DNA from: Octopus sinensis
Taxonomy: Eukaryota
Reading direction: 5' to 3'
Length of the DNA stretch: 64,000 nt
Assembly: GCF_006345805.1 (NCBI RefSeq)
Contig: NC_042999.1
Span: forward strand, 39,122,001-39,186,000
Shown here: positions 1-43,865 of the stretch, piece after piece
Layout of the letters: each line of letters opens with the position of its first letter
How positions within the stretch are numbered: the stretch's first letter is position 1
The notes under the pieces: model-generated
What the model was told of the DNA's origin: nothing
Seen by the model: the letters and a program-made list of their open reading frames with translations, nothing else
Database searches by the model: none
Translations under genes and position numbers: made by a program

Positions 1-850
1 GCGTCTCGAAACAAGGATATGCACAATAGTGTCAGAACAAAATACCAGGAACTTTAGACTGCAAGAACTCAAAAACACCCTAATTGACAGACATTACCCA
101 GCTCAACTCATAAAGGATGGGATCAGACGTGCAACAGAAATCAACATAGAAACTTTAAGAAAAGTTCAACACAACAACACACCTTCCCCGAAAATACTAC
201 CTTACATATCCACATACAACCCCAGAAACAAAGAAGCCTTCACCATCATCACCCAGAATTTACCAATACTTCATAAGGACCCCAAATTAAAGGAAATTCT
301 AAACATACACCAAATCATTAAAAGCTACAAACAACCTAAATCACTTAAAATGATTCTCACAAAGGCAAAATTGTTTTCTGAAATTACGGATGCAAAAGTA
401 AAAAAATGTGGTAGACCGAACTGTGCAACATGTCCAAACCTGCTAGAAGGATCAGAATTGCTCTTCAAAGAGGGACAGAAATTCAATATCATATCTAATT
501 TTACTTGTGCCTCTGAAAACATAGTTTATGTCATAAAATGCTCGGGCTGCCACCAAGACTACGTGGGATCCACGGTACTATCACTCAGACGTAGATGCAC
601 ACTGCATCGACAACAGATTGCATTCCCAGAATACAGAATCATACCCTTTAGTGAGCACATTGAGAAATGCGCAAAGCAACTACTACCAACATTTTTAATC
701 TTTCCATTTTACCAATGTGCTATCGGAACACCAACACAAATTAGACTAAACAAGGAAACATTCTTCATTGAAAAATACAAGCCCAAACTTAACCATTCCA
801 ACATACTTTTACAGAGAAATTCACTCCAAAAGAAAGGCAAAAAATTTTAA
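1..850 (+). mobile_element. Penelope-like retroelement, 3' part of ORF (RT C-terminal helical region, Cys linker, GIY-YIG endonuclease); 5' end lies outside the window
   Basis: Open 273-aa frame with CGRPNCATC linker, FTCASENIVYVIKCSGCHQDYVGST (GIY-YIG), R...H motif and RLNKETFFIEKYKPKLN end, typical of PLE endonucleases; an HHR follows in the 3' pLTR region. Confidence 0.9.
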
Positions 851-10814: not shown

Positions 10815-11495
10815 AGTTTGCCGTGGCTGGCCACTAATCTAAGAGAGAGTTTGTAGCTACTGCCCTTAGGTTACCTTCGTACCTTGCAGTGGGTTCATCT
10901 GGGATCCCGGAAAGCAGCTTGTCTAGATGTTTTTTGAAAATGTCCACATCCGCATCATGTAGATCTCTTAGTTTTCTTGGCAGTTTTGAAAAGCTGAGGG
11001 CCCCTGAACCCCAGGCTATTACGTATCTGCTCCTTACCCTGGATGTGGAAGACGGGACCTTTGGCACCACACAGTGACGTCCTGTACGGGGATTGGAACA
11101 GCTCTCAATTCCAAAATTTGGTGCTAGTCCCTCCAGGATTTTCCATATGTATATCACTGCATATCTCTCTCGTCTTCGTTCCAAGGAGTACAAATTGAGT
11201 TCCCTAAGCCTCTCCCAATAGTTCTTTTCTTTCATGGTGGAAATCCTCTTGGTGAAATGTCTTTGGATTGTCTCAAGCTCTGTGGTTAGTTTGACACTAT
11301 GCGGTGACCACAGTTGAGAGCAGTAGTCCAGGCGGCTTAGGACAAATGTCCTCCATAGTGTCAACATGGTCTCGCAGTCTCTTGTCCGGAATGTCCTCAG
11401 GATCCAGCCAGTGAGTCGTCTGCACATTGTCGCCACCTTCGCGATGTGTGAAGAAAAAGATGCATCGTCACTCATGTCTATCCCCAGGTCCCGTA
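10815..11495 (-). mobile_element. CR1/L2-group LINE ORF2 C-terminal fragment, 5'-truncated into a (TA)n tract
   Basis: RDLGIDMSDDASFSSHI...ILRTF...VLSRLDYCSQLWSP...LETIQRHFTKRI...YWERLRELNLYSLERRRER...FKKHLDKLLSGIPDEP. Confidence 0.9.
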
Positions 11496-11497
11496 TT

Positions 11498-11500
11498 GAT

Positions 11501-11554
<54 letters not shown>

Positions 11555-11875
11555 ATATACATATATTATGTATACAAATATATATAAATACAGATATATA
11601 TATATATATATACATACATATATATATATTCATATATACATACATGCATAAATACACACGTATATAAATATATACGTATATACATACATATATATTTATA
11701 TACATATATAAATATATGCATATATATACATATATACACATATATACATACAAACATATAAATGTAAATATATATATTCATATATATATACACATATATA
11801 TATATACTTGTACATATACACATATTCAAATACATACATATGTATATACACACATAGATACATATATTCACATAA

Positions 11876-11927
<52 letters not shown>

Positions 11928-12211
11928 CTATATACATATATTTATACTTACATATATATACATACATTTATAAATACACATATATATATACATACATATA
12001 TATAAACATACATATATATATATACATATATATACACACACATATACATGGATATATATATATATTATACTAATTATATATATACATAGATATATATAGT
12101 ATATATACATACATACATATATATATATACACATACATATATATATATACATATATATACATATATATATACATGTGTATACATATATTTATATATATAT
12201 ATATATATATA
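11498..12211. repeat. Long compound (TA)n/(TACA)n microsatellite
   Basis: Direct inspection. Confidence 0.95.
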
Positions 12212-12380
12212 CATAAGGGACTAAAGCCATCTGAATATGGCTAGGGACAGGGCAGGGTGGTGGGGGTGTTACTGTTGCATTTAGCCCCAGGCGAACATCG
12301 ACGTCACCAGAAAGGCCCGACACCGTCACGGTGTCCTTTAACCTGCAAAGGGAGGTAATTCCCCGATGAAGCGGAAACCA

Positions 12381-12426
12381 CACACGGACCATGGTTTCAA
12401 GGTGTATTGCCTATCGTCGGCGTGTG
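12381..12426 (-). ncRNA. Minimal hammerhead ribozyme (U4C core variant)
   Basis: cacacg-CCGACGA-t-agg(caataca)cct-t-GAAA-ccatg-GTC-cgtgtg: 6-bp stem I, palindromic stem III ACCATGGT, GUC site. Confidence 0.7.
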
Positions 12427-12481
12427 TTCTATATATGAATATCCTGCAGAGTGAGAATTCGTCGAGGAGGCGGAAGCCTAC

Positions 12482-12527
12482 CACATGCCGACGATAGGCA
12501 ATACACCTTGAAACCATGGTCCGTGTG
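12482..12527 (+). ncRNA. Minimal hammerhead ribozyme (U4C core variant), opposite arm
   Basis: cacatg-CCGACGA-tagg...cctt-GAAA-ccatg-GTC-cgtgtg. Confidence 0.7.
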
Positions 12528-12745
12528 TGGTTTCCGCTTCATCGGGGAATTACCTCCCTTTGCAGGTTAAAGGACACCGTGACGGTGTCGGGCCTTTCTG
12601 GTGACGTCGATGTTCGCCTGGGGCTAAATGCAACAGTAACACCCCCACCACCCTGCCCTGTCCCTAGCCATATTCAGATGGCTTTAGTCCCTTATGTTAT
12701 CGAGCAGTTACTGTCTATATCTCTTTTAGAGAATTATTATTGCTA

Positions 12746-12824
<79 letters not shown>

Positions 12825-13138
12825 GCCTGTATATATATATATGCACATATATAACCCGAAATATGTGTATCTGGCTGATGGAAAGTTAAAAAGAGAAAAA
12901 GACCGTATATGTGTGGGGATCTGATATTCGTCTATTATTACAACTATATGAACCTTTAGTTTTCTGTTACTGTATTACATGATATATTCATTATATTTGC
13001 ATATTAGATATTCAATAATACTTCAATGGCTTTGGAATCAATACAAATTGAAATCTAGTTTATGAAGTATATGTTTACATGAAAAATCAATTAAGATGTA
13101 ACTATCACAATTGATGTAGTAAACATACATTAATAATG

Positions 13139-13169
<31 letters not shown>

Positions 13170-13411
13170 CTGTGTGTGTGCGCGTGTGTGTTTATGTATA
13201 TACATACGCTTACATATATACTATATGTAAATATATATATATATACATATCTATACACATCCACAAGCTCTAACTTACACACATATATGTACGCATACAT
13301 ATATATGTATACACACATATATATATATATTTACATATGTGTGTGTGTGTGAGTGGTCTTGTTTATACGTATATCTATATGTACAATATGCTTATAGACA
13401 TACACACACAG

Positions 13412-13467
<56 letters not shown>

Positions 13468-14203
13468 TGCGTATTCATACACCTCTGTGTGTGTGTACTT
13501 GTGTGCGGTGTATGGTTATGAATAACCTGTGTATACACGTTGAGAGTTACAAGTGTAAATATCTGACTGAGAGCGTGCAAATGTGCATGGAGTTTTCATG
13601 GTAATTTGCGAAAGAAAACAATCTTCGAACGAAAGTCGGATGTTGCAAACAGGAATACGGAAATATCAACGATATTTCAATAGAAAAATATCAATAAGTA
13701 GAATAACATACATCCAAATTAACAATAGAATCTTTGTTCTGGAATTGAGTCACGATGAAAAAAACTTGTAACCAACAGTAGAATCAAACAAACATTAACT
13801 TGAATTTCCTTTTAAGTAAGCTTCCCTGAAATAATAATCAAATTCTACCGAATCATTTTCTAAGGAATATTCGGTGCCTATAATTAATGTAAATTTTGAA
13901 AAAAGTAGTTTTCATAACCCTGCACACACGTACTACATTAAACATACACAGACGCACCTTCTACGCACAGACGAATACGTCATGCACTTACCTACATAGG
14001 CACCTATGTACGTACTTACATACATACGTACACACATGCGTACATAATTGGAGCTCTTATTCTTGTTAGTGCATTGAATTGAAATCCCATTGCAAAAAAC
14101 GAAACAAAACACTGATTGTAGTAAAATGGTAATTAAATAGTTTCAAATCCACCACATGCTCAGTCAATTCTTTCACATTAATAAAAATAAAACCGACGGA
14201 GAA

Positions 14204-14336
14204 CTACATTATTTACTTTCGACGGATACTTTGTCTTCATCTTGTTTGTTGTTAACACAACGTTTCGGCTGATATAACCTCCTGCGATCTTCAGGTGTCT
14301 TGGGGAAAATTTGAACCTGGGTTCTCATTCCTAAGG

Positions 14337-14385
<49 letters not shown>

Positions 14386-14560
14386 GTTATTATTATTATT
14401 ATTATTAAGAACATCGAAAAATATCTTAAGAATGAGAACCAAGGTTCGAAATTTCCCCAAGACACCTGAAGAACGGTGGAATGTATATTAGCCGAAACGT
14501 TTTGTTAACAACAAACAAGATGAAGACAAATATCCATCGAATGTAAATAATGTACATAAT
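14204..14560. mobile_element. Fold-back HHR element with (ATT)n centre; degenerate HHRs at ~14254-14299 (-) and ~14461-14506 (+)
   Basis: Diverged inverted arms; gacac-CTGAAGA-...-gcc-GAAA-CG-TT on both strands; same family as 27124-27381. Confidence 0.75.
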
Positions 14561-15512
14561 GTACATAATCCCTCATATCTGAAATATGGAACAGATAAAT
14601 AACTCGTAAGTAAAATTTATTATTTAGCTTTAATACCGTACAATTAGTCTAATTCGTCTTTGAGTGAATTCGTTACTTCACCAATTTTCTCCTAGGAAAG
14701 AGAAATTAGGCGAATTATAATGCATTTAAAACAATTTATTTTATTCTATTTAATTTTTTAAATACTGCATTTTTCCCAAAACTACAGGCATGAATAATGG
14801 TCTTACATACAAATGTAATTTTTTTTTGCTTAAATAATATTTTCCATATATGAAATGAGTTTCTTAATATAAGCCCACAGGCTAAAATCGGATGGGCTTA
14901 TTTTTGGAAAAGCCCAGGAAATATGTTATAATTTTCATTTTAATAAAATATATTGAGGCAAGCTTGTCTTTGTTTTGCAACGGAAAGATAAGTATGTCAA
15001 ATTAAAACCAGAGTGGAGAAACTGCGTGTATGTAATGGGAGGAAAACAAAACAGGATTATAAATACAGAGACGATATCCTAGACATGGCAATCAGTGACT
15101 AACCAATTACTGCATCCAACTGTAGGAAATGTAAAGGAATATAATATTCGCTACAATAATCTCAGACAATGCTTTTTATCTTTTAAATACACGTTAGACT
15201 CGTGAGTGAAATGCATTTTGTAATAAGTTTTGTAATAAGTAATGTCCAGACGTGGGTATCATAAAGTAGAAGCGCCAGACAGCACACATGTACATCCACA
15301 AACACGTACACATGCAAACATTTATACGTACACTAATAAATAAATACATACATACATACATACACATACATACATACATACATACATACATACATACATA
15401 CATACGTACATAGAGTTAATCAAAACAAGAAAGCACAAAAAAACACAACAACGCGAGGACGTGGAACAAATATAGTATTATTGGACGCTCGGGAAAGAAG
15501 GAAAGAAGGAGG

Positions 15513-15547
15513 GCTTAACGTTTCGAGCGCAGCTCTTCGTCAGAAAC
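15513..15547 (-). ncRNA. Minimal hammerhead ribozyme in a PLE-pLTR-like fragment (~15415-15620)
   Basis: gttt-CTGACGA-a-gagc(tgc)gctc-GAAA-CG-TT-aagc: canonical core, 4-bp stem II, palindromic AACGTT. Confidence 0.7.
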
Positions 15548-15629
15548 ATAGGAGAAAGAAAGATCCAGAGAAGGGAAGACAGAGGAAAAAAATTCGCGGT
15601 CACATTTTGAAAAACCGACATACATATAT

Positions 15630-15709
<80 letters not shown>

Positions 15710-15713
<4 letters not shown>

Positions 15714-15900
15714 ATATTAATTAGAGACAAAACCACTATTTTGCAAAACAAACAAGGAAAGACTTAATACATAAAATTTTAATAAATTTATTTTTTATTT
15801 TTTACTTTTTTTTACTTTTTATTAAAATTTTATGTATTGATTAAGTCTTTCCTTGTTTGTTTTGCAAAATAGTGGTTTTGTCTCTAATTAATATTATATA
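15710..15900. repeat. Inverted repeat with ~75-bp arms and a T-rich spacer
   Basis: tataatattaattagagacaaaaccactattttgcaaaacaaacaaggaaagactta... is mirrored at ~15818-15900. Confidence 0.85.
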
Positions 15901-15957
15901 ATATTTTACTATAACATTGGATTTAATCCTAAATCTGATTTTTTCCCTAATATTTAT

Positions 15958-16019
<62 letters not shown>

Positions 16020-16801
16020 CGACTAGTATAATTATAGAACAATTGCAAATTGAAAGTTTCAACTATTATCATAAGACAATGGATAAAATGATTAGCGCAG
16101 ATATTATAAAGTCCTAATATAAACAGGTTCAAAGCCAAGATGAAATGAATAGAAATAGATGTAGCAAAACCAGTATAATACACTGCTTAAAGCATTGAGA
16201 AATCTGGAAAACATAATGGAAAGTATGATGAATAAGGCACAAGCCTGGTAGCAATCAAAACAATATGTGGAATCTCTGAATCAACTATGTCGACTTATTT
16301 GAATGCAGAATCCATTATAGCTCACCAGCATATTTCATATATTTTATTTTTATACAGTCCGGAATTAAACAGGATATATAATAAAGCAGTAATGTATATC
16401 TATTGGAAAATCTAGATAGAAATAGATTCTACAAGCCATTAGCAATATGTCAAATTAACTCAACAGACATCGAACTAATCAGAATCAATACAACCTATAA
16501 GTATACAGAGGTGAAAACTTAACACTGGCTGTATTGTTACGAACAAAACGTAGTCTCAGCATTTCAATTGACTTACGTCTAATTCTTGTAATTCATATAA
16601 ATATATATTTCTTCTTGAAAAGTAAAAATGTATCGTTTTATATGGAGATATGTAAATTGAAAATACCAGTGTTTCGCACATGGAAAATGATACATTCTTG
16701 TTAATGTTACAAACCCGAAGTGGCAAATTATCCATCTATCTCTCTATTGGTATTTGCCCTCCGTTTATCTTTCTCTTTATATATATATATATATATATAT
16801 A

Positions 16802-16967
16802 CTTTATTTAAAGCAGCGGAAAATTCAACAAAACCTGTTACTCTGAGTTTCCCGTTGCCGTTCATCGGCCAGATTTTGCTAGAATTCTAGCAAAAACTGT
16901 CCGATGAACGGCAACGGCAAACTCAGAGTAACAGGTTTTGTTGAATTTTCTGCTGCTTTAAATAAAG
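16802..16967. mobile_element. 166-bp spacerless palindrome with an HHR in each arm (16829-16878 on -, 16891-16940 on +)
   Basis: Centre gctaGAATTCtagc; plus arm caaaaactgt-CCGATGA-a-cg(gcaa)cg-g-CAAA-ctcaga-GTA-acaggttttg (minus arm has GAAA); 9/10-bp stem I, stem III ACTC-A-GAGT. Confidence 0.75.
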
Positions 16968-17049
16968 CATATTACTCTACCACTGGTATTTGAGTACTCT
17001 TTTTTCTATCTTGTTTCACATTTATGTGTTTACTCCAGTATATGTATAT

Positions 17050-17091
17050 ACTAGCATTAAAGAACCGTCGTTGCCGGGCCATAGTGCTAGT
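17050..17091 (-). mobile_element. Helitron-like 3' terminus (hairpin + CTAG|T)
   Basis: Minus strand cccggcaacgacggt...gCTAGt; same motif as 34655-34683. Confidence 0.5.
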
Positions 17092-17148
17092 GCATGTATA
17101 TATGTGTATATATATGTGTACATATTACATGTACATCTATATATATAT

Positions 17149-18617
17149 AATGATAAATATCAGAGTTAGTTATATACAGTAGCGGTAACACATCGTGACG
17201 TATTTTTGCCATTTCAATATAGCTAACCCCTAAGGGTGGATGCTAATGTAGTTTTTAGCTCCAGGAGAACACACTCCTCCAGCTGGCCATAGACACATTT
17301 TCTGTCAGAAAAGTCGACCTCGGCGGAATTTGAACTCAGACGAAAAACCGCTAAGCATTTCGCCGGCGTGTTAACGTTCTTAAGAACCTATAATACAATC
17401 GATAGAAGTTGTTGCGTAATAAAAAGGAGGCTCGATGTGAAAGTGGAGAAAGAATTGAAATTGTCCTGGAGTCTTCAATCAAGTTGAGGGTCTTCCACTT
17501 TTAAAGGGTGAACAAACTCTTATGGACTGGATTTTAATGTTCTAAGCTTATTAGTACAAAACAACGGCACTGTCTGTAACCATCCACAAGGAGAAATGTG
17601 CAGTCAAGTTATTCTCATACTTCGAATGAATTTTTCGGAAATGTAAGCGGAAGTTTTCACTTTTATAGAAAAAAACAAAATGAATGAGTGAGTGGGCGAG
17701 TGAACTGGTTGGCGAGTAACATAGAGACTGGTGTGGGGAGCAGCAGCAGTGAATAGAAAGAGGCGATAGAGAGAGGGAAAGCGAGAAAGTAGAGTGAGGA
17801 AAAGACAGAAGTCTTTGTAGATTATTAAGTGGTAAACGGTTTTCATTTCACACACAACACGCAAGCAGGCAACCCATACACACATACATCTACACTCGTT
17901 TAGGCGGTGTACATACAGAGGGCGAGTCTGTTCGGCAAGTTGTAATGACTTGTCTCGAAACTGAAGTGGTTTTACTCGAATGATACCAAATTTGTTCTTC
18001 TTTGCGGTATCTGTTTCCGTTTAATGTTGGAGGAGGTTCAATGAAGGGGATGAACCACAGAACACAAAAATGTGTGGGTCGCTGGTGGTTGTGGTGGCCG
18101 ATGATGGACGAGGAAGGTCGCGTATTTTGATTGTTAAGTATGTTTGTCATAACAGAAAGTGTGTCTATGGCCAGCTGGAGGAGTGTGTTCTCTGGGGCTA
18201 AAAACTACAGTAGCATCCACCCTTAGGGGTTAGCCATATTGAAATGGCAAAAATACGTCACGATGTGTTACCGCTACTGTATATAACTAACTCTGATATT
18301 TATCATTGTTTGATTTCACTTTTTCAATATCAGCGACAGTGGACGCTGGAAAAAGTATAAGTATTTGTGAAGGAAATCTAATTCTCGGCGACAACTATGA
18401 TCGTCACACGCTGACGAGAGGTCAATACCTCGAAACTCGAGTCCGTGTGTATCATAAGTTGAAGACGGGAAGGATGACTTCCCTTTGCAGATACTGACAG
18501 GACACAGAAAGTGTGTCTATGGCCAGCTGGAGGAGTGTGTTCTCCTGGGGCTAAAAACTACAGTAGCATCCACCCTTAGGGGCTAGCCATATTGAAATGG
18601 CAAAAATACGTCACGAT
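17149..18617. mobile_element. PLE-pLTR/retrozyme-like array: inverted partial copy (17149-17305) plus partial tandem direct repeat (18152-18503, 18504-18617)
   Basis: The ~155-bp arm 17149-17305 is the reverse complement of 18152-18307; the sequence recurs at 18504 (period ~352 bp); canonical HHR inside the unit. Confidence 0.75.
18393..18460 (+). ncRNA. Canonical type-I hammerhead ribozyme
   Basis: cacacg-CTGACGA-gaggt(caat)acctc-GAAA-ctcga-GTC-cgtgtg; intact core, 5-bp stem II, palindromic stem III ACTCGAGT; stem I extends via tatgat/atcata after an internal loop. Confidence 0.88.
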
Positions 18618-18689
18618 ATATATATATACATCTACACATAAAATACAAAATACAAAGTTATATCTTGATATTGCTAGTGATAACAATAC

Positions 18690-19400
18690 TCAAAATATAT
18701 AACAAACTGGAATTGTTAGCACGTCTCTTGAAATTTCGATCCATTGTATCTTGTCCTCCCTCTTGTATAGAGGTGTGGCTACAATCCAGCCTACCTCTAC
18801 TTCTGGGTGGGGGGCATTTTAAATGTTTTTTCCGGGACGTCCTGCGTCCCAGATATAAAGGTAAAATTAAAATATTTCCACTTTGCAAGTTCGAGTCGAG
18901 TACTTCCTTGCACGCTCCGTTGACTCGATCCTTGCTTCTATTGTGGCGAATTTACTGCCTCTGCTTAGATATCTTTCATAGTCGCACCAAGACACTTTTC
19001 GATGGTGCTTTCCTCCAGGTGTTCAAATCTTTTTTTTTCTCTACGTCGTATACTTTTTAGACAATAGTTTTTTTCTTTAATTTAAATTTTTATTTCGTTT
19101 GGTGGTGTTATCCTAGATTCACCGTCTTTGTCGGTGATCAATCCGTATTTCTTCCATTTTAATTTCAATGACTTCGCGCCCGCCGACGGCTGCAGCGAAA
19201 TTCATTTTTGGAATTTCTTCTATCGAAGGTATACTAATAAAAATGCTTCCGTGTAAACGGTGAAAATATTGCCAATTTCCCCAAACAGGGACACAATTCA
19301 ATTTTTAAACAATAACCAAAGCTCCTACAGGGGGAGGGCTACAATTATTTAACAAATGAAACCCAACAACATTTCCCTTACGTGGAACCAACAAACGTGA
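18690..19400 (-). pseudogene. Decayed L1/Tx1-type ORF1 (gag-like) remnant, distant relative of 38590-41165
   Basis: Frameshifted peptides MNFAAAVG...KDGESRITPP...IEKCL...SRGSKFATIE...ILPLYLGRRTS...PEVEVGWIVA align with YASATG...KDGTSLRLT...IEECL...NYGTVE...PPEIEEAWLMA. Confidence 0.55.
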
Positions 19401-19962
19401 TAACAATAGTTAAACAGTAATAATAATAACAAACCTTACAGTGAACCAAAAAACAGTACGCAATTGAAGCTATAGTCCTTTATGTATAATAGTCCATCTG
19501 GACTATTCCATTTCTGCACCCTAATTTTATTTTTAATTTATTCCCATTAATGTGAAACCACTTATTGAAGTTCAAATCATTGATGCAATTTTATACCAAT
19601 TGCTATTTTTACTTTTGTTATGTTACGATTATATCATACTTTAGTTTGATTTTAATTATTACTTACTACATATAATTCAATTTTTATTATTATTGTTAAA
19701 GTGAAAGCATCTGACATAAAATAGAGAAATATTTTTGTTTCACTTTTAACACGTAATACTGAAACAAAAACTTGAATCGGTAGATAGCCAAAGGATTGCC
19801 TTACCCATCGATTGTCCTTAGCTTGCAGAAACTTTGAAATAACTGTCAACAAAATTACTGTATGACGTTAATAAATATATATAAATGTGCGTTTATATAA
19901 ATATATATGGAAACACAGGGGCCATATATATATAGGTATGTATGTATGTATGTACATATATA

Positions 19963-21095
19963 CAGTAGGTATCAAATTATTAGGCACCTCTCTTTTTATC
20001 CAAATAAAAGTATTTATTTGTTCGAATCCAAATATCTTTTCACTGAATGATTTCAACACTTGTCTCAGCAAAGTGTAGGATGATAATTTGGATCCGCGCA
20101 GATATAAGCAAATCGTGGCCATTTTCCTGGAAAAGCAACAATTTTACCCTCCTAAATTATTAGGCAAGTACCCACTAAAAAGCGTGATTTAACATCAAAT
20201 GAGCAGTCCACAATCGCTTCGGTATTTGGAAAAGCAAAAACGATACTGGAAATATCAAAGATCCTGGGAAGAGATCATCGACCTGCGGTGAAGTTTGTGG
20301 GGTCTTCTGCTTTCCGTTCGAGGGCTGACAAGGGTAAATCGAGAGTTGTTTCCTGGCATACCCTATCACGTATTACGACAGAAGTTGCGAAGAACACGTG
20401 TTTGACTAGTCGAGACGTGTTTAAGTGTCGCCTTGTGAAGCTGGTAGCCAGGAATGTAAAGCCTGTTATAAGGCTCCTTCTGAAGGATGTTCATAAACAA
20501 AATAGAATCAAATGGGTAGAAGACTACATGCAGATAGATTTTTTCAAAAGTTCTCTTTACTGACGAATGCCGTGTTAACCTAGACGTATTAGATGGGTGG
20601 AGCGTAGGATAGGTCGCAATTAGCGTAGACGTCCTCATCATTTGAGACGCCGATATCTATAGCAATTAGGCTTCTCTGGATACTGTTCGAGGAAGTGGCC
20701 AGCGTGTTCACTTGAAAACCTCGATTGAAAATCTATGGAGTCTTTTGAAGAGTAATATATATCAAGATGGACGGCAGTTTTCAACGACAAATGCGTTCTA
20801 GGAAGCTACCGTGGATGCTGCTGAGAGAATTACACCAGATGAAATAGTTACCTTGAGAAATTCAATGGAGAAACGCCGCAGTGGTGTTTTCTCATGTAGA
20901 AGATCATACATCCATCATTAAGAAGTTTATGATATCATATTTCCATTCAAACATATCATTATGTTCATTATATTGTCCGTTACGATTCCATTCGTTTTTA
21001 AACTTTAAATGTAGCATTAAATAAATTTTTCTCATTACATAATTAGCAATTATATTAGACTCACCTAATAATTTAGGACGGTGAAAATAAGGCCT
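19963..21095 (+). mobile_element. Decayed Tc1-like DNA transposon (transposase remnant ~20185-20920)
   Basis: Starts TA|CAGT; internal repeat aaattattaggca (19974, 20154) inverted at ~21065; peptides ISKILGRDHR, KVLFTDECR, WPACS...NLWSLLK, SMEKRR. Confidence 0.85.
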
Positions 21096-21310
21096 ATTAA
21101 TATATAAATGGTCGTTGATTCTTTACGTATAGGTGGACCACAATTATAATGGTACCATACATGCAGAGAGATGTTATCACCATGTTGTGGAAAGTTGTTT
21201 TGATTTGAACGATAAAACACTCTGTTACTGGCAAAAAACTGAGCTGCCTAAAAATTTGACACGCAGTGTACATACGCATAAACATACACACACACACACA
21301 CACCACACAC

Positions 21311-21347
<37 letters not shown>

Positions 21348-21357
21348 ACACACATAT

Positions 21358-21399
<42 letters not shown>

Positions 21400-21450
21400 T
21401 ATCATCTCTCTCTCTTTATATATATATATTATATATATATATATATATAT

Positions 21451-21580
21451 ATTACACATACGTTTGCTGAATTTTCTTGAGAACAATCTTTTGTTAGTTC
21501 TCAGACCATATGAATTCTACTTCTAGCATATGGGATGTCCACTTAGTGGTCATCCCACTTATATGTATATAAATATATGC

Positions 21581-21613
<33 letters not shown>

Positions 21614-21782
21614 TATTCATCTCTCTCTCTCTTTTTATATATATATCTATATGCATATATATATACATATAAGTGGGATGACCACTAAGTGGACATCCCA
21701 TATGCTAGAAGTAGGATCCATATGGTCTGAGAACTAACAAAAGATTGTTCTCAAGAATATTCAGCAAACGTATGTGTAATAT
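21451..21782. repeat. Fold-back of repeat family X: ~120-bp inverted arms around a (TA)/(TC) spacer
   Basis: attacacatacgtttgctgaa...gtggtcatcccacttatatg mirrored at 21660-21782. Confidence 0.85.
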
Positions 21783-21881
21783 AATTTTTCTGAATCTTCA
21801 AATTTTTCAATATGCTAGGCCAATGGTTTAAATTGATATTAATCAAATTAACATTCAATATTTTACCCTTATATATATATA

Positions 21882-21927
<46 letters not shown>

Positions 21928-22020
21928 GAGGGTAGAGATTGATATTAATCAACAGCAATTTAAACCAGTGGCTTAGCATCCGAATATTAAAAATAATATT
22001 ACATACAAAATATAAAAGGA

Positions 22021-22521
22021 ATGACCACTAAAGTGGATTCCTAATATGCTAGAAGTGGACATCAAATCGCATTAGCACGAAGTGTGTGTCTCAAGAAAAT
22101 TTCAGCAAACACCAGAATGTTAAAATGAGTAAGACAAATCAAAATATACAAAATAAAATGATTACCTACGTACCATGGTTTCGTGTGTTAATATCTACGA
22201 ATGTAAATATCTGCAGACTCCCCTGTGCAGTTCGTCATTTACAAAACATAATTTTCAATACTAGACATCGAAGGTTCACTCGAAAGACATCATGTATGAT
22301 GTTTTGCAAATAAAACTTGGGGGTATCTTACAAAGGCCGGAAGTAACATTGCAGTTAATAAATTTCTGCAGCTAATTTACCGGTTAGAGGACAATTGTTA
22401 TTTCGAACTTCAACAATGAAGCTAGAAATTGATATTTATTTGTGTGTGTATATATATATATTAAGTGGTGTGCATATAACTTCATTATTATATGCATACA
22501 CACAGACACAGACGCACAGAC

Positions 22522-22608
<87 letters not shown>

Positions 22609-23211
22609 GTGTGCGCGTCTGTGTCTGTGTGTATGCATATAATAGAGAAAGAAAGGGGAGAGACAAGGAGAAAGAGATAGATAGATAGACAGACAGATGA
22701 CCACTAAAGTGGATTCCTAATATGCTAGAAATGGACATCAAATCGCATTAGCACGAAGTGTGTGTCTCAGAAAATTTCAGCAAACACCAGAATGTTAAAA
22801 TGAGTAAGACAAATCAAAATATACAAAATAAAATGATTACCTACGTACCATGGTTTCGTGTGTTAATATCTACGAATGTAAATATCTGCAGACTCCCCTG
22901 TGCAGTTCGTCATTTACAAAACATAATTTTCAATACTAGACATCGAAGGTTCACTCGAAAGACATCATGTATGATGTTTTGCAAATAAAACTTGGGGGTA
23001 TCTTACAAAGGCCGGAAGTAACATTGCAGTTAATAAATTTCTGCAGCTAATTTACCGGTTAGAGGACAATTGTTATTTCGAACTTCAACAATGAAGCTAG
23101 AAATTGATATTTATTTGTGTGTGTATATTATATATTAAGTGGTGTGCATATAACTTCATTATTATATGCATACACACAGACACAGACGCACAGACACACA
23201 CACACACATAC

Positions 23212-23289
<78 letters not shown>

Positions 23290-23913
23290 GTGTGCGCGTC
23301 TGTGTCTGTGTGTATGCATATAATAGAGAAAGAAAGGGGAGAGACAAGGAGAAAGAGATAGATAGATAGACAGACAGATGACCACTAAAGTGGATTCCTA
23401 ATATGCTAGAAATGGACATCAAATCGCATTAGCACGAAGTGTGTGTCTCAAGAAAATTTCAGCAAACACCAGAATGTTAAAATGAGTAAGACAAATCAAA
23501 ATATACAAAATAAAAAGATTACCTACGTACCATGGTTTCGTGTGTTAATATCTACGAATGTAAATATCTGCAGACTCCCCTGTGCAGTTCGTCATTTACA
23601 AAACATAATTTTCAATACTAGACATCGAAGGTTCACTCGAAAGACATCATGTATGATGTTTTGCAAATAAAACTTGGGGGTATCTTACAAAGGCCGGAAG
23701 TAACATTGCAGTTAATAAATTTCTGCAGCTAATTTACCGGTTAGAGGACAATTGTTATTTCGAACTTCAACAATGAAGCTAGAAATTGATATTTATTTGT
23801 GTGTGTATATATATATATTAAGTGGTGTGCATATAACTTCATTATTATATGCATACCACAGACACAGACGCACACACACACACATACATATATATAATAT
23901 ATATATATATATA

Positions 23914-23963
<50 letters not shown>

Positions 23964-24043
23964 CTGTGTCTGTGTGTATGCATATAATAGAGAAAGAAAG
24001 GGGAGAGACAAGGAGAAAGAGATAGATAGATAGACAGACAGAC
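22021..24043 (+). repeat. Three near-identical tandem ~680-bp units (starts 22021, 22697, 23378) built from family X plus internal microsatellites
   Basis: Each unit starts atgaccactaaagtggattcctaatatgctagaa; the same spurious 75-aa ORF repeats three times. Confidence 0.92.
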
Positions 24044-24576
24044 ATAGGTAGAAATGTACAGCCATATGTTTGTGTATGCCTATTTCGGCAGAAAGATTTG
24101 CAACTAAAGAAAAATACTAACAGAATTTAGAGTAAAACTTGTAACAGTCATGTAATGAAAAGAAGGAAAATTCAAAACTTCATAAATAGTAACGAGAAAC
24201 TTCGAGAATGATAAAGCGTATTCCTGCAAATCCGTAAAAAAAACACATCTTCGTTTGCTTTATTCACAACTAACAGATAAATTTAGGGAAAAAAGAAAAT
24301 TAAATAAGATTATGAAAACGCTTTCAGTAATAACACTGAAAGTTTCGAAAGATCCAAACAATTCTTCAGCAGAAATAAGTATCATTAACTAATAATGAAG
24401 TTATATGCACACCACTTAATCACATGAAACCTAAAGGTATATCAGCAATAAAACAATAGTCTCCCTGATGGAGAACATAGAATTTCGACATTTATAATTC
24501 GGTCACACTGCATAATAGTAATGTTTATTTTAAATGCACTGTAATTCATTACCATCATATGGAAGGTTATCATAAC

Positions 24577-25204
24577 TCTATCTATATTATATTTCAAGTA
24601 ATCATCTGGCCTAATTTATTGTGGAGCAGCGAAAAGTATAATGGGATCTGACAGGCGGATTTTAAAATATACTTCAACTCATGTATTGAGTATTTACTTC
24701 ACTTTTGCTGAGAAACTAGACGTCTCTCTCTCCCCGCTCTCTTTTTCTCTATATATATACATAGTCAAATGGCTATATCTATGTCCACCTTACTATCTAT
24801 ACGTATGCATGTATGTCTATATGGAAATAGGTGTCTATGTATGAGAAAATGTTTTAATCTCTCTGATGTAGGAATGATATATTTAAACTTAAAGTATAGG
24901 TACAAAGTATTAAACCATCATTTTATATAGAAGGAGCAACTTTAACTGTAAGTATTAGACACAGATTAGGGTTTAAAGATATTGAATATTACAGACAGTA
25001 GACAAATGGACAATAATAGCACATCAAAATTTGTTTATCGATTTCGTTTGGACGTATCTCAGTGAAGCATAACAACTAATTCTAGTTAAGGCGATCAATG
25101 AGACTGTCCTATCAGAAGTAGATGCTTGGGAATCATTGAGAATGCAGCAGCTGCTCCACAATAAATTAGGCCAGATGATTACTTGAAATATAATATAGAT
25201 AGAG
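24577..25204. repeat. ~55-bp perfect inverted repeat pair with a ~520-bp spacer
   Basis: ctctatctatattatatttcaagtaatcatctggcctaatttattgtggagcagc and its reverse complement at ~25150-25204. Confidence 0.85.
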
Positions 25205-25667
25205 TCTTGAGTGAGACGTCAGTTTCATTTTCGTTGAATATTGGAAGTAACTTTCCTAAAGATTTGGTTTTAATGCGAAAAGTACTTTTACACTAAGTTA
25301 TTATCTTGTTTTAAGTTATTGGTTTTGCCACTCAGTTGGTTCATTGTATTATTATTAATGTCTATAAATTCGTTACAGTTGGTCGTAGTTGTCATGAAAC
25401 AATTGATTTTGTTTTACGAATGTGTAGAATATGCAAATGATTGTTATTTCTTCTCACTCTTTGTCTGTCTTTTGTTTATCCCCAGGTAAGCTCCTATCTA
25501 GTATTTCTATTATGAAGTTCATCCAGCTGTGAACATCCCATCCTTTAAATAGACAGTTTGTGTGTGTGCATCGTGTAAAAACTTATCATTCACACCCGTA
25601 TTCATACAAGCCACACACACACATACGTACGTATTCCTGCACTACACAGACTCACAATCACACGAAT

Positions 25668-25729
<62 letters not shown>

Positions 25730-27123
25730 ACACACAACATCTCACACGCACGTACTTATAAGAGACATTTCTAAACTGGCGCTTTCCCTTCTTCGAATAT
25801 AGTAGAATGTATGAAATTTACAGAGGAATAACTTTTATATTACGAGGCCAAATGAACGACAGGCTTCATTCCCAGTCACGTTGTTTCGCCTTGTAGCAAA
25901 TATCGTTCTCTTTACTATAATTATAATTTTAGTACGGAATTTGTATCAGATTAAATTATCTTAAATATATTATAATTTATGTCACATTGATATTTTATGT
26001 AACATGTCATTTGTTAAGGTAAGACGTAAACGAATATGGGTGGGTTTAAATAAAAAGAACATACAGGAAATGATTAGTATTGAGATGATTTTTTGTTGTA
26101 GTGTAAGATTATGCCCATAAACGGTTTTTTTCCCCGGGATTAAATGGTAGACTGTGTATATAATACGTGTATGAATACAGACGCCGTCTTTCAAGTGATA
26201 GAAGAAACACGAATGCACTGAATTCCATCAACCACTGATTGAAAACTAGTAAAAATAATTGTCTAGTATATTATATGCGAATGAAATATATAAGAACTTA
26301 ATTTAAAAAAAAATGCATGGGCAAGCCATAATATTTCGGCCGATTTCTAGATTCGATTGAAAAAGGTCCTAACCTCCATTAACGCATTGTACTCAACGTT
26401 ATCATTAACTACACACAGTCTGTCTATCAGTTCTTATATACGTGAAACAACTAAGAAATTTTAAGTATCACAATATCTATGCACGCATACCTCGTGTTCT
26501 TTCTTGTTTCTTTACTGATAGTATTTCGTGTAGAAAACATTGATGTTTTTGCTTTTATTCTCTGTTCAATTTCCTTTGACGTTGTTGTGTGTCTTGATTT
26601 GTTTTTTAGGTTTAGTTAATCAGCATTCATAAGATTCAGACTTTCAGTAGCCTATTTACTATCATTTATTTGTAATCGACTATAGGAAAACCAATGCATA
26701 ATATACCATTTCCAAATTTGGGATAAGGTGAACAGTAAGAAACTGCACAGCACAAATTTAAATTAGTATAATTCTCAGGAGAATTATTGCATCTTTAAAT
26801 ACATCGTCTCAAAACCCACCGATTTTTACTCAGTGGTAATTATCATCACTGCAGTGGACTTTGTTTAATGGTTCACGATATATGTGTTATTTTTCTGGTC
26901 TGTATAGTAAATCAATGTCAGTAAACGAATGATTTAGACATCCCATTTGAGAACGTTTGTGTTGAAGCAACTTCGTCAAATTTTGTACATCTTGTGCGTT
27001 TCCTTTCAAATATGATAGCGTTATGCCTACGGATATAACATCGGCATCGATGCAATAAAAATAAACACTGAATGTGAGCTATGCTCATGTTTTATGCTGT
27101 TCTATATTTAAAAGATGAAAAAT

Positions 27124-27381
27124 TATGTACATCATTTACATTTAACGGATATTCGTCCTAATCGTGTTTGCTGTGAATACAACGTTTCGGCTGATATACC
27201 TTCCAGCCTTCATCAGGTGAATTTGGAAAATGTTAACATCGAAAAATACTTTAGGAATGAGAATCCAGGTTCGAAATTTCCCCCAAGACACCTGATGAAG
27301 GCTGGAGGGTATATCAGCCGAAACGTTGTGTTAACAACAATCAAGATGAGGACAAATATCCATCAAATGTAAATAATGTAC
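27124..27381. mobile_element. Fold-back HHR element; HHRs at ~27177-27220 (-) and 27287-27332 (+)
   Basis: gacac-CTGATGA-a-ggctg(gagggtatat)cagcc-GAAA-CG-TT-gtgtt on plus, mirrored on minus. Confidence 0.8.
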
Positions 27382-27954
27382 TCATGTTTTATAGTTTGTT
27401 CACTAAATTGTTTTAAAATTGATCACGCCGTATTAGAATTGCGTTTCTATATTCATCTATTTGGATGGCAGTATATGGTAAAGATAGCAAAATATTACAT
27501 GCGAAATAGCCTTTCCGCTTAACGTTAAGCTCCATATCTGATGCTCAGACACAAAATATAACCAAAAAAATTTTAAATATTGTCCTATTTTAACTTATAT
27601 TTTATTTAATCGTGATTCTATAATTACTTCTTAGAAATTACTGTCACGATGCTTCATATTTAAAGAAAAACAATTAGTCTTCTTAACCAGGGATGCCTCC
27701 CAATGTTAATGTTAATACGTTAATGTTATTTCGGTAACATTAACGTATCTAGAAATGGGACCTCTAGAATTTAATTCCCTTTAACTGCATATTGAAACCA
27801 TTAAGCCGCTTGTGTTTATATTCATTTATCCACCACCAAATTCTTGGAAACAGGAAAGGCGATGCAAATGCAATCACAATGAAACTGCCAAGAGGCAAAC
27901 CTGAATTATGGCATTTGAACATATTAAAGGAAATTAAGATATTAAAAGAAATCG

Positions 27955-32603: not shown

Positions 32604-33209
32604 GTCGCCTAAATATCTTTCACCTGCGCTGCCTCCGAAAATCCTTCGCATCAAATGGCAGAATCATGTCCCCAACAAAGATGTCCTCAAGCAAGCAGGA
32701 ATACCAAGCATGTTTACACTCCTCACACAAAGATGTATGAGATGGATTCGACATGTTATCCGTACGGAAGATGGCAGAATCCCCAAGGACATACTCAACG
32801 GAGAGCTTGCTAGGGGCACTAGGTCTGTGGGAAGACCGTTCTTACGATACAAGGATGTTTGCAAAAGGACATGAATGTCTGCATCATCAATATTACCAAC
32901 TGGGAAGCAGTTGCCAGCAACCGTGGCGATTGGCGACGTACTGTAAAAGAGGGAACACAAAGGAGTGACAGAGAGAGAGAGGAGAAATGGAAAGACAAGA
33001 AAAGACGTCAACAAGAAAGTATGACATTACAACCAGCCAGGCAAAGTCTTCGCTACATTTGCGGCACCTGCCAGAGGGAGTGTTTGTCCAGGATAGGAGT
33101 ACACAGCCACAGCAGGAGATGTATTAGGACATGAAATGTAAAAGCCGGACTAGATTATTTTATGCGCAACGCCATTGTCTCCCGAGACAAAAAGGCTGCC
33201 AACAACAAT
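32603..33209 (+). mobile_element. RTE-clade (BovB-like) LINE 3' end
   Basis: FHLRCLRKILRIKWQ...RWIRHV.R.EDGRIPKDILNGEL...GRP.LRYKD; C-terminal CGTCQRECLSRIGVHSHSRRC; 3' stem-loop ttgtctcccgagacaa and (CAA)n tail. Confidence 0.9.
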
Positions 33210-41165: not shown

Positions 41166-43865
41166 GTGATGGGGATAAAAAAATCTTCGGTATTGGTAGC
41201 AGTTCATTATGAGCATTTGATATAAAACGTTGAGTTTCTTGTAACAGTAATATCTATTCGTCATGTCTATATTTTCTTCCACCCCCTGCTTCGTTATATT
41301 CTTTATCAAATACAAGGATATAAAACTGGCGATGAGTTGTTCGAAGCTAGCGTTGGACGCTTGATGTTTTTCGTACGAAACAAAAGAAAAATGGAAGACT
41401 TATTGGCCTTCGTGGTGCAGTTGCAACAGCGACAGCAGCAACGACAACAACAACTTTTACCGCAGCAACTACAACAACAAAACCAATAGTTGCTCTAATT
41501 AATATTGAAGGAGTCTGAAAATGCTTCAGGTTCATACTCGCCAGGCAGCGTAGCAAGCCCAGTTGGAGAATTGAAATACAACTAAGGAGAAGGTATTAAC
41601 TTCTCTGCATATTTTCATAGATACGAAGAAACATTGAAAAAAATACAGTCAAACTTAGTCCGACGAGAAATAAGTAAGACGACTTTTAAGAAAGTTATCC
41701 CCTACCAAACACGGAAAGTAAGGTAACTATATTCTGACGAAGAATTCAGTTGAGATTTGTTTCGATGAAATAATATCTTATCGACAATTTTCAATGAAGG
41801 AAGTGTCCTGTCCAATACTCGCTGGTGCTGCTTAAATTTGGTAAAGAAAAAGATGAAGATTTCTTCACCTATGCCGGTTAGAAATTCAATCTGAACGAGA
41901 TGACCCCGGACATTTTTAAGTCTTTAATTTTTGTACAAGGGCTTACTGCAAAGAAGGAGACAGATTTACGTTCCCAGATATTAACTAAATTCGAGCAGTA
42001 TCGAAATTTATCTCTATAGGCAATAGTAGAAGAATGTCAAAAGTTTATCAATCTACAACATAACGCAAGTAAAACTCAAGAGAAAGAATGTTCTCAGAGC
42101 CCAGCGTGTCGAACGTTAACGAACAAGAAAATATATAAAAGGATACCAAGACCGAATCCATGTTATGAATGCGGTAGTCTACATTTTAGAAATAACTGTC
42201 CGTTTAAAAATAGGAAATGCTACATGTGAGGTAAAAGAGGCCATAAAAATCGCATTGTAGAACAGTAACTAGAAAACGGTTCAACAGAAAAATCGCGTAA
42301 ACAGATTATCAGTGACAATAAGAAAATATGTGTATGTAAGATTAAATAACACAATCATAAACTTATAATTCGATTCAGGCAGCGACATCACAATAATTAA
42401 CACAGATACATGCAAAGAGATCGGGAGATCTAAATTAAATGAAACCTCGAAAATTGTCGTGTTGTTTCAGGAAAAAATATTTTAAGGGCGAATTGATAAG
42501 TAACATTACATTTCGTAAAAAAACCCATTAAAGGCTAAAATTTTTGTGTTAGATAATATAACAAACTTGTTCACAACTAAGAGGATGGAATTGTTTAATT
42601 TATGGAACGGCCCCATAAATATTTTCTTTAAAAATGTAAATGGTCATTTCCATCAGAAGAAATAAGTAGTCAGACGAATTGCAAAAAAAAAAAGAAATTG
42701 AAAATGTTTTTTCTGAAGTCCTATCTAATAAATTAGGTCTGTGTACCAAAAACGCGGTTTCAAATACGAGAGAATGCTATACAAACATCTAAACAAAAAC
42801 GAATGGTACCGTTCGCAGCGTTAAAATAGATAAACTAAGAATTAGAGAGACTAAACAAAAATAGAGTTATCCAAAAATTAGATTATTCTGAACGGCCACC
42901 ATCAACTGTGTACGTTAAGAAAAATAATAATAAAATCAGAATGTGTACTGATTGTTGCACTGGTTTAAATGAAAGTCTTAAAACGTGCCACTATCCGCTA
43001 CCTATTACGGAGGGTATTTTTGCGAAATTGGATCTCTCTGACACGTACCTACAAATTAGAGTAGACGATGAATGCTCTAAATACCTACCAATTAGACTGT
43101 ATAAATTCAATAGGTTACTATTCGGATTAAAAGTCGCACGTGTCATTTTCAACAGATTATGGATGCAATGTTTGCTGACTGAATTCACAATTCCATATCT
43201 GGATGATATACTCATTAAAAGAGAATCTAATGATGAACAATTAGAAGACGCAAAATAATGTATGCGAAGAAATTAGGAAATACGGTTTTACATTGAGTGA
43301 AGAAAAGAGTGAATTTTTATTACAGAAAATAAGATATTTAGGATAAATAATTGAGAAAAATCGACGTCGACCAGACTCGTCGAGGGCAGACGCAATAAAA
43401 AATATGCATCCTCTGACTAATACAGCGAACTTACAGGCATTTTTAGAACTGGCAAATTATTACCAAAATTATATTCCAAAAATGCATAAGATCAGGTTTC
43501 AACTAAATAATCTGCTGAAAAAAGATATGAAATTAAATTAGTCGGAATGTAAGTCAAAAGGCATTTGGCGAAATAAAAACGATTACCTGATTTGTCGTTA
43601 GCATATTTCGATCCTGCAGCGAAAATTGTTGTAGATTCAAACGGTTCTGAGTACGGTATAGGGGCAGATGGTAACAGGAAGGCGGTGGATCATATCTCAC
43701 GTTTTCTGATAGCAGCAGAGAACAATTGTAATCAAATCGACAAAGAAGTTCTAGCAATCATGTTAGCCGTGAAAAAATTTCACAGATTTTTGCACGGTAG
43801 AAGTTTTCGTCTACAGACTGATCACCGTCCGTTAATATCGGTACTTGGATCGTTAAAATATCAAG
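41166..43865 (+). mobile_element. Decayed Ty3/Gypsy LTR retrotransposon (K02A2.6/Mag-like): LTR remnant, PBS, gag, protease, RT, RNase H; integrase missing
   Basis: PBS-like TGGCGATGAG at 41327-41336; knuckles CYECGSLH...C; protease FDSGSDITII; RT KIRMCTD...YPLP...DLSDTYLQI...YLDDILI; RNase H EVLAIMLAVKKFHRFLHGRSFRLQTDHRPL. Confidence 0.9.

What the first reader, a model, noticed from the sequence alone, without database searches (positions are those of the whole stretch)
12211..27381. Recurring fold-back mini-elements with a hammerhead ribozyme on each strand, in several unrelated families
Seen: four non-coding inverted-repeat elements of 166-490 bp (12211-12697, 14204-14560, 16802-16967, 27124-27381; three sequence families) each carry a minimal HHR in both arms. 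The layout is always the same: minus-strand HHR left, plus-strand HHR right. The inversion point lies about 0-50 nt upstream of HHR stem I. 17149-18617 shows the same polarity. Established: PLE pLTRs carry minimal HHRs with palindromic stem III that are thought to act as dimers, and PLEs often have an inverted 5'-truncated pLTR. Inference: these are ORF-less ribozyme hairpin units, either mobilised in trans by the PLE RT/GIY-YIG or produced by a stereotyped template switch near the ribozyme. A transcript of either strand would hold an HHR plus its antisense arm, which could gate cleavage and form long dsRNA (ADAR or siRNA substrate). I do not know of this being described as a system in cephalopods.
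Basis: partly seen in the sequence, partly recalled or inferred. Interest (0 to 1): 0.8.

Follow-up and report, generated by a model that had tools for sequence, protein, structure and literature searches.

The report
Two-armed Penelope retrotransposon insertion stubs
The four hairpins are real, but they are cut-short, head-to-head insertions of Penelope-like jumping genes and a small passenger element, a layout already described for this class; the ribozyme motif appears twice only because it lies near the element's end, and the two arms were likely primed from two start sites on one RNA.

Summary
The four inverted repeats and their outward-facing hammerhead (HHR) motifs are real. They are 5'-truncated insertions of Penelope-like elements (PLEs) in the known "inverted truncated copy plus tail" layout, not ribozyme-hairpin units. 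Two families are 3' ends of coding PLEs found elsewhere in this genome: 16802 is Hydra-like, and 14204 and 27124 are Poseidon-like. The 12211 family is a 361-nt tandem retrozyme-like passenger. Inversion points are not tied to the HHR. In the 12211 family arm ends run from -433 to +158, and in the 16802 family only 22 of 44 fold-backs keep both HHRs. Only 1 of the 8 motifs has a canonical core with intact stems. What this adds: 104 of 111 fold-backs carry the tail on exactly one arm, and the arms share alleles. That favours twin priming from the two RT start sites of one RNA over self-priming (inferred). Side findings are a tRNA-like segment in one PLE 3' UTR where many copies begin, and an 846-bp host-DNA capture at 17310-18155. 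This scan noted the same pattern before in other genomes. Opposite-strand HHR pairs are already in print (Cervera 2014).

The parts
12211..12426 (-). Family A (361-nt retrozyme-like monomer), left arm, ends at the core 3' end in (TA)n; HHR-like motif 12387-12420 (U4C, palindromic stem III)
12428..12743 (+). Family A right arm; HHR-like motif 12488-12521; 46-nt tail 12698-12743 on this arm only
14205..14343 (-). Family B (3' UTR of a Poseidon-like PLE), left arm, degenerate HHR 14259-14294, no tail; (TTA)n centre 14344-14408 is the element's own microsatellite
14410..14596 (+). Family B right arm, degenerate HHR 14466-14501, tail about 14562-14596
15400..15600 (-). Family S: solo element of about 190 nt with HHR 15517-15543; 8 of 8 copies in the 800-kb sample are not folded back
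15703..15960 (.). Family F fold-back with a one-sided tail, truncated before its HHR (longer copy L119 carries the HHR in both arms)
16802..16884 (-). Family C (3' end of a Hydra-like PLE), left arm, HHR-like motif 16839-16868 (U4C), no tail
16885..17038 (+). Family C right arm, HHR-like motif 16901-16930 (U4C, G12C), tail 16968-17038
17149..17305 (-). Family E (353-nt retrozyme-like monomer), left arm with tail, no HHR
17310..18155 (+). 846-bp captured copy of a host locus on contig C8 (99.3% identical; the only other match to this part), joined to the right arm by a 4-nt microhomology
18152..18617 (+). Family E right arm (1.3 monomers), canonical HHR 18411-18443, core end without tail
27097..27219 (-). 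Family B left arm with tail (about 27097-27123), HHR 27181-27216 with broken stem I; 12-bp TSD at 27084-27095
27235..27380 (+). Family B right arm, intact minimal HHR 27292-27327, no tail; TSD copy at 27381-27392
2..805 (+). Fragment of an unrelated coding PLE (RT thumb to GIY-YIG), about 50% identical to Neptune-like PLE proteins of this genome

Best explanation
These hairpins are 5'-truncated head-to-head insertions of Penelope-like elements and of a retrozyme-like passenger, each likely folded anew at insertion, and they carry the hammerhead motif twice because it lies within about 70-210 nt of the element's 3' end. Inferred mechanism: the PLE RT/GIY-YIG protein nicks both target strands and primes reverse transcription twice on one RNA, once at the tail start site and once at the core start site. 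Both cDNAs stop early and join head-to-head, often through 1-6 nt of microhomology. The result has outward-facing arms with the same alleles, independent 5' ends and a tail on one side only. The ribozyme plays no shown part in the fold. A read-through transcript would pair the HHR with its upstream antisense arm and is predicted to silence it.
For: Shown here. Family C runs into a 464-aa RT (YRDD) plus endonuclease frame with the CxxC/E/N/CxH pattern of Hydra PLEs. L321 is itself a fold-back, with a 132-nt tailed arm and a coding arm of about 2.6 kb. Family B runs into a GIY-YIG ORF end in 7 of 30 position-ordered copies. Families A and E are non-coding tandem monomers of 361 and 353 nt. Head-to-head in 20 of 20 close pairs. 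Exactly one tail in A 25 of 25, C 41 of 44, B 33 of 37 and E 5 of 5; two tails in 1. Arms agree at 272 of 275 polymorphic site comparisons in A (174 expected if independent) and 46 of 47 in C. Junction overlap of at least 1 nt in 15 of 22 (A) and 25 of 44 (C). One 12-bp TSD brackets the whole 27124 unit, and TSD-like repeats of 9-13 bp lie at several B loci. At the shared B centre the arm keeping the native loop is the tailed arm in 8 loci and the tailless arm in 3 loci with both ends resolved; simple self-priming does not allow the latter. From papers: layout and one-sided tail (PMC8557442, PMC3846280); both strands cleaved and extended, two RT start sites bounding the tail, HHR cleavage dispensable in vitro (PMC11167929); opposite-strand HHR pairs 100-700 bp apart (PMC4209133).
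Against: Twin priming is inferred from genomic end products only. The exceptions are L014 (two tails), L077 (left arm ends 46 nt past the tail) and 6 fold-backs scored tailless. The loop-orientation test rests on 11 fully resolved loci of 30, and recombination between the arms could flip a loop after insertion. Hot spots exist: 36 of 109 family C arm ends fall at -18 to -12, and 211 family B loci share one exact centre. That leaves room for some whole-unit copying. No autonomous partner was identified for families A and E. In the 800-kb sample the orientation bias alone (5:0 against 3:5 in controls) is not significant (p=0.075). Loci came from best-hit or exact-match searches and so favour young copies.
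Confidence: 0.85

Rival explanations
1. Same PLE origin, but the second arm arises by self-priming: the cDNA folds back at a short palindrome and copies itself, and the endonuclease trims the second arm at the core end (Arkhipova 2013 model).
For: Arms share alleles. Junction hot spots sit at short palindromes in families B and C. The model is proposed in PMC3846280.
Against: About half of solo family C copies lack the tail (10 of 21), yet tailless/tailless fold-backs are 0 of 25 in A, 3 of 44 in C and 3 of 37 in B. The tail sits on the arm lacking the native loop in 3 fully resolved and 3 half-resolved loci of 30.
Confidence: 0.3
2. The fold-backs are dedicated non-autonomous ribozyme-hairpin units that move as a whole.
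For: 211 family B loci share an exact 22-nt centre. Family C arms are very short and 22 of 44 fold-backs keep both HHRs.
Against: Junctions are distinct in 25 of 25 (A) and 37 of 44 (C). Repeated junctions occur on different haplotypes and with the tail on either side. The only identical pair (L070/L071) also shares flanks. None of 18 descriptor-intact HHRs in 800 kb has an opposite-strand partner within 600 nt. Family A has 0 canonical cores in 33 distinct contexts.
Confidence: 0.05
3. The ribozyme sets the inversion point: a stereotyped template switch at or just upstream of the HHR, or at its cut site.
For: Family C arm ends cluster 12-18 nt upstream of the core (36 of 109).
Against: Family A has only 9 of 68 arm ends at -55 to -5, and 0 of 25 fold-backs with both ends there. 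Cut-site enrichment is absent (1 of 68, p=0.74; 3 of 44, p=0.34). The family B hot spot is about 150 nt or more upstream, at the tRNA-like segment.
Confidence: 0.07
4. The palindromes are assembly or amplification chimeras.
For: Perfect palindromes are a known artefact class (own knowledge). No listed contig spans a whole element.
Against: One-sided tails, TSDs and arm divergence are not expected of chimeras. In two DNA runs of different studies, contigs enter the 27124 element from both flanks with 0 differences and in the head-to-head polarity (records 9, 16, 17, 24). They cover only 25-30 nt inside the element, short of the tool's 31-nt bridging rule.
Confidence: 0.02

Closest known systems
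EN+ Penelope-like element insertion units (pLTR, adjacent inverted 5'-truncated copy, one-sided tail; Arkhipova 2013 PMC3846280, Craig 2021 PMC8557442)
   Same: Head-to-head inverted truncated copy, tail at one end, palindromic junctions, HHR near the 3' end, (TA)n targets or TSDs, capture of host sequence between the repeats.
   Different: Here most copies are so short that only the 3' UTR remains. Tails are about 35-70 nt. The one-tail rule and arm concordance are quantified; I did not find this in the passages read.
Dual minimal HHRs on opposite strands in Schistosoma mansoni (Cervera and de la Pena 2014, PMC4209133)
   Same: Pairs of minimal HHRs 100-700 bp apart on opposite strands, attributed to truncated PLEs.
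   Different: Only mentioned there, not dissected; a different phylum.
Hydra-clade PLEs (Craig 2021)
   Same: Family C parent has a C-terminal EN with CxxC and CxH around the conserved E and N, an HHR and (TA)n insertion.
   Different: 3' UTR of about 1.3 kb; no tree was built and the N-terminal motifs were not seen, so the clade is assigned by motif only.
Metazoan non-LTR retrozymes (review PMC7761336; bioRxiv 10.64898/2026.07.22.740005)
   Same: Families A and E are non-coding tandem monomers of 353-361 nt with a type I HHR and palindromic stem III. A monomer-length circular contig occurs in two runs guessed to be RNA.
   Different: They integrate with the full PLE signature (inverted arm plus tail). 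Family A cores are all non-canonical (U4C or C3U). Cleavage and circular RNA are untested.
Twin priming of LINE-1 5' inversions (recalled, not from a call)
   Same: Both target strands prime on one RNA; microhomology at the junction.
   Different: In L1 the second primer starts internally and the inverted part does not duplicate the 3' end. Here both primers would start near the 3' end, giving an inverted duplication.

Membership tests
EN+ PLE insertion | 3' end continuous with an RT plus GIY-YIG ORF | tested here: met
   Families C and B. Not found for A and E, which are non-coding.
EN+ PLE insertion | Inverted 5'-truncated copy head-to-head at the 5' end | tested here: met
   20 of 20 close pairs; 44 of 65 C, 18 of 30 B and 25 of 43 A loci
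EN+ PLE insertion | Optional tail at one end | tested here: met
   104 of 111 fold-backs have exactly one
EN+ PLE insertion | TSD or microsatellite target | tested here: met
   12-bp TSD at the 27124 element, none clear at the 14204 element; (TA)n flanks in A, C and E
Hydra clade | CxxC and CxH around E and N in the EN, no CCHH, (TA)n target | tested here: inconclusive
   Motifs read by eye in the L321 frame against PMC8557442 section 11; no Pfam hit; no phylogeny; RWK and DKT region absent from the fragment
Minimal type I HHR | Conserved core with stems I and II and a palindromic stem III | tested here: inconclusive
   Intact in 1 of 8 motifs of the four elements and in 18411. Stem III stays palindromic across families and within A through double changes. 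The 18411 motif cofolds as a canonical dimer; the 12488 and 27292 motifs do not. U4C lowers activity in vitro but was tolerated in a viroid (PMC3088659).
Minimal type I HHR | Self-cleavage | not testable with these tools
   Needs an in vitro assay or raw RNA reads
Non-LTR retrozyme (families A, E) | Tandem non-coding monomers, each with a type I HHR | tested here: met
   361-nt and 352-353-nt periods
Non-LTR retrozyme (families A, E) | Circular monomer RNA | tested here: inconclusive
   One 390-391-nt contig closing on itself in each of two runs only guessed to be RNA; tandem transcripts or DNA would look the same
Whole-unit mobile hairpin element (MITE-like) | Same junction and arms at many unrelated loci | tested here: not met
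tRNA-derived SINE (short family B copies) | tRNA-like head with A and B boxes at a fixed 5' end | tested here: inconclusive
   11 of 30 anchored arms start within its first 9 nt. ARAGORN found 0 genes in 8 loci. Rfam tRNA scored 12.2 bits, E 4.9, in one copy and nothing in another. The segment also lies inside the coding element's 3' UTR.

The most novel reading that the evidence does not exclude
Penelope-like elements integrate by twin priming from the two RT start sites of a single RNA, one cDNA on each nicked target strand. This single step would explain the inverted arm, the head-to-head polarity and the one-sided tail of the whole class, and it works for retrozyme passengers and captured host sequence too. 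In one family a tRNA-like internal promoter in the PLE 3' UTR may also spawn SINE-like progeny.
Probability: 0.45. Interest if true: 0.6.

Novelty: new member of a known kind. Interest (0 to 1): 0.3.

Why it matters
As a new ribozyme system it does not stand. The residue worth keeping is mechanistic. How PLEs finish integration is still open (PMC11167929 calls the later steps unvalidated), and this genome holds thousands of young two-armed copies whose one-tail rule and allele sharing make the twin-priming and self-priming models directly separable. The copies are also a plausible source of near-perfect dsRNA in an animal group noted for very high hyper-editing (PMC5625713), which is untested here.

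Tried and rejected
Rfam scan of the window: no gathering-level hit and no hammerhead family among the 150 of 214 rows shown. The repeat finder was swamped by microsatellites. An apparent rule that one family C arm carries G12C came from query bias; it vanished in the position-ordered sample. Family C copies beside Neptune-like PLE ends (L115, L129, L140) are separate insertions into the shared (TA)n. A hairpin upstream of the family C hot spot folds no better than shuffles (z about 0.35), so that hot spot is unexplained. One search's end map used a reference with a private duplication and was redone. Run search: no RNA holder listed on record; contigs cannot show strand, level or editing. No partner PLE for A or E among 30 GIY-YIG loci and 5 long-ORF loci. 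Dropped before counting: second hits of the same insertion (5 of 70 C loci; 17 of 60 A loci, including the duplicate L071), and the window's own locus L001. Families T and U in the 800-kb test used references taken from that sample. Paper searches for a cephalopod description, for twin priming in PLEs and for a tRNA-like promoter in PLEs found none. Subscription papers, Repbase/Dfam and all supplements were not seen and may already describe these families.
Full report
Scope. The window lies on contig C3 of a 2.72-Gb genome. Positions below are relative to the first base of the HHR core (C3 = 0).

Observation. Self-BLAST and arm alignments confirm all four inverted repeats and their head-to-head HHR-like motifs. 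The arms are 99.5% identical at 12211, about 95% at 16802, and 80-90% at 14204 and 27124. Of the 8 motifs only 27292-27327 has a canonical core with intact stems. Both 12211 and both 16802 motifs carry U4C, 16901 also G12C, and the other three have broken stems. The 17149-18617 element has an HHR in its right arm only. The window also has a solo HHR element (15517-15543) and a fold-back that stops short of its family's HHR (15703-15904; compare L119). One 12-bp TSD brackets the whole 27124 unit. Contigs of two DNA runs from different studies enter it from both flanks without differences, though 1-6 nt short of the tool's bridging rule. An artefact is unlikely.

What the families are. Family C (16802) has 2329 exact matches to a 36-nt piece. 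Long copies extend about 1.3 kb upstream into an ORF. L321 holds a 464-aa frame with an RT YRDD motif and an endonuclease. It matches a Neptune-like PLE protein of this genome at 23%, E 1e-9, and RT-related clusters in the Atlas at 0.98. It has no Pfam hit. Its CxxC/E/N/CxH pattern fits the Hydra clade described in PMC8557442 section 11. L321 is itself a fold-back, with a 132-nt tailed arm and a coding arm. Family B (14204, 27124) has 1617 exact matches to a 45-nt piece. It is the 3' UTR of a PLE whose GIY-YIG end is seen upstream in 7 of 30 position-ordered copies; 'Poseidon-like' is my recalled reading of that sequence. Its UTR runs stop codon, tRNA-like segment, (AAT)n, HHR, core end, tail. 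Family A (12211) is a young (97-100%) non-coding 361-nt tandem monomer, and family E (17149) a distantly related 353-nt one. The genome has many coding PLEs: 5029 GIY-YIG candidates, 150 scored, with open frames up to 883 aa.

Polarity. 20 of 20 close pairs among the first 100 listed C matches are head-to-head. In 800 kb of arbitrarily chosen genome, HHR-bearing families gave 5 head-to-head and 0 tail-to-tail of 34 clusters. Two control repeats gave 3 and 5 of 149. The fold-back rate differs (p=0.006), but orientation alone is not significant there (p=0.075). This is the known PLE layout: an inverted 5'-truncated copy with a tail often at one end only (PMC8557442, passages), and head-to-head junctions with palindromes (PMC3846280, passages). 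Opposite-strand minimal HHR pairs 100-700 bp apart were reported in Schistosoma (PMC4209133, parts 1-2 of 4 read).

The junction is not set by the ribozyme. In A, 25 of 43 loci resolve as two-armed. Their arm ends span -433 to +158, and both HHRs are kept in 7, one in 12 and none in 6. None has both ends at -55 to -5. In C, 44 of 65 insertions are fold-backs, with both, one or no HHR in 22, 9 and 13, and 37 distinct junctions. In B, 18 of 30 are fold-backs. Ends are not enriched at the predicted cut (1 of 68; 3 of 44). Against my reading, C has a real hot spot at -18 to -12 (36 of 109 ends), which I cannot explain. B has one at the start of the tRNA-like segment, and 211 loci share the same palindromic centre. 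Of 18 descriptor-intact HHRs in 800 kb (0 in a shuffle), none has an opposite-strand partner within 600 nt. Family S never folded back (8 of 8). In whole-hairpin transcripts of the 12211 and 27124 elements the HHR stems have probability 0.0. Family A spreads with 0 canonical cores in 33 contexts: 18 U4C, 14 C3U and 1 with both. That fits the report that HHR cleavage is dispensable for insertion in vitro (PMC11167929, parts 1-2 of 4). Stem III nevertheless stays palindromic through double changes, so some selection on the fold remains.

Mechanism. Exactly one arm bears the tail in A 25 of 25, C 41 of 44, B 33 of 37 and E 5 of 5; two tails occur once (L014). L077, which the script did not resolve, is a further exception by eye. 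Solo copies have or lack the tail about equally (11 and 10 in C). The arms share alleles: 272 of 275 comparisons in A against 174 expected, and 46 of 47 in C, so one template is used. The two 5' ends vary independently and often overlap by 1-6 nt. The purified lizard PLE protein cleaves and extends both strands, starts RT at two sites that bound the tail, and is predicted to be a dimer (PMC11167929). I infer twin priming: one cDNA from each start site, joined head-to-head. Self-priming (PMC3846280) explains allele sharing. It predicts tailless/tailless fold-backs, which are rare here, and a fixed relation between loop and tail. At the shared B centre the native loop lies with the tailed arm in 8 and the tailless arm in 3 of 11 resolved loci (30 examined). 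Post-insertion flipping could blur this test. I put the PLE-insertion reading at 0.85 or more and twin priming at about 0.45-0.55.

Side findings. The filler of the 17149 element is an 846-bp, 99.3% identical copy of a locus on C8, joined by 4-nt microhomology; capture between PLE repeats is described in PMC3846280. Two runs guessed to be RNA each hold one monomer-length contig of family A closing on itself, compatible with a retrozyme circle or tandem transcripts but not proof. 11 of 30 B arms start within the first 9 nt of the tRNA-like segment. A pol III start is possible, but the tRNA evidence is weak.

Novelty. The layout and the PLE-retrozyme link are in print (bioRxiv 10.64898/2026.07.22.740005, part 1 of 5 and passages; PMC7761336, passages). 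A recent octopus repeat annotation lists active Penelope families but contains no 'ribozyme' or 'palindrom' (PMC13282606, passages). Searches found no cephalopod description and no twin-priming proposal for PLEs, within the library's limits; supplements and subscription papers were not seen. Other passages read: PMC3088659, PMC5625713, PMC10886601. Earlier notes of this scan report the same pattern in other genomes; they are not independent support. Verdict: new members of a known kind, interest 0.3.

Noticed in passing
window 17310-18155; L392 822-1666: 846-bp host segment from contig C8 (99.3% identical) captured between the arms of a retrozyme-like insertion, with a 4-nt microhomology at the right joint.
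   Followed up: yes
L339, L348, L353, L355 (family B 3' UTR): A tRNA-like segment with pol III box-like motifs sits inside the 3' UTR of a coding PLE, and 11 of 30 copies start at it; possible PLE-borne SINE.
   Followed up: partly
window 12428-12743; runs X1, X11: A single monomer-length contig closing on itself in two runs guessed to be RNA; possible retrozyme circle.
   Followed up: partly
family A loci L051-L080, L231-L260: Two subfamilies with different non-canonical HHR cores (U4C and C3U without G8A), yet palindromic stem III kept by double changes; U4C also recurs in families C and S.
   Followed up: partly
window 15400-15600: Family S: element of about 190 nt with fixed ends and a minimal HHR; never folded back in 8 of 8 sampled copies; partner unknown.
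   Followed up: partly
L115, L140, L327 (3' UTR of the Neptune-like PLE): HHR-like motif with the U3-A8 core variant near the 3' end; these PLEs have frames of about 780 aa, overlapped upstream by a second long frame.
   Followed up: no
window 2-805: Fragment of a coding PLE (RT thumb to GIY-YIG) followed by a short 3' UTR ending in (CT)n(TA)n.
   Followed up: partly
window 21448-21979: Further head-to-head repeats around (TA)n with a one-sided extension and no HHR detected; probably another PLE-type family.
   Followed up: no
window 22021-24042: Three tandem copies of a unit of about 677 nt at 97% identity.
   Followed up: no
window 24575-25205, 46158-46497, 56333-56580: Other inverted repeats; 24575/25150 has perfect 56-nt arms around 519 nt, MITE-like.
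   Followed up: no
L033-L034, L181, L187 (family T): Another tandem HHR monomer of about 560 nt, in arrays of up to six or more units, with head-to-head inversions.
   Followed up: partly
window 10834-11565 (minus), 32664-33134, 42839-43258: Long frames that look like decayed LINE or LTR retrotransposon RT pieces, judged by eye.
   Followed up: no
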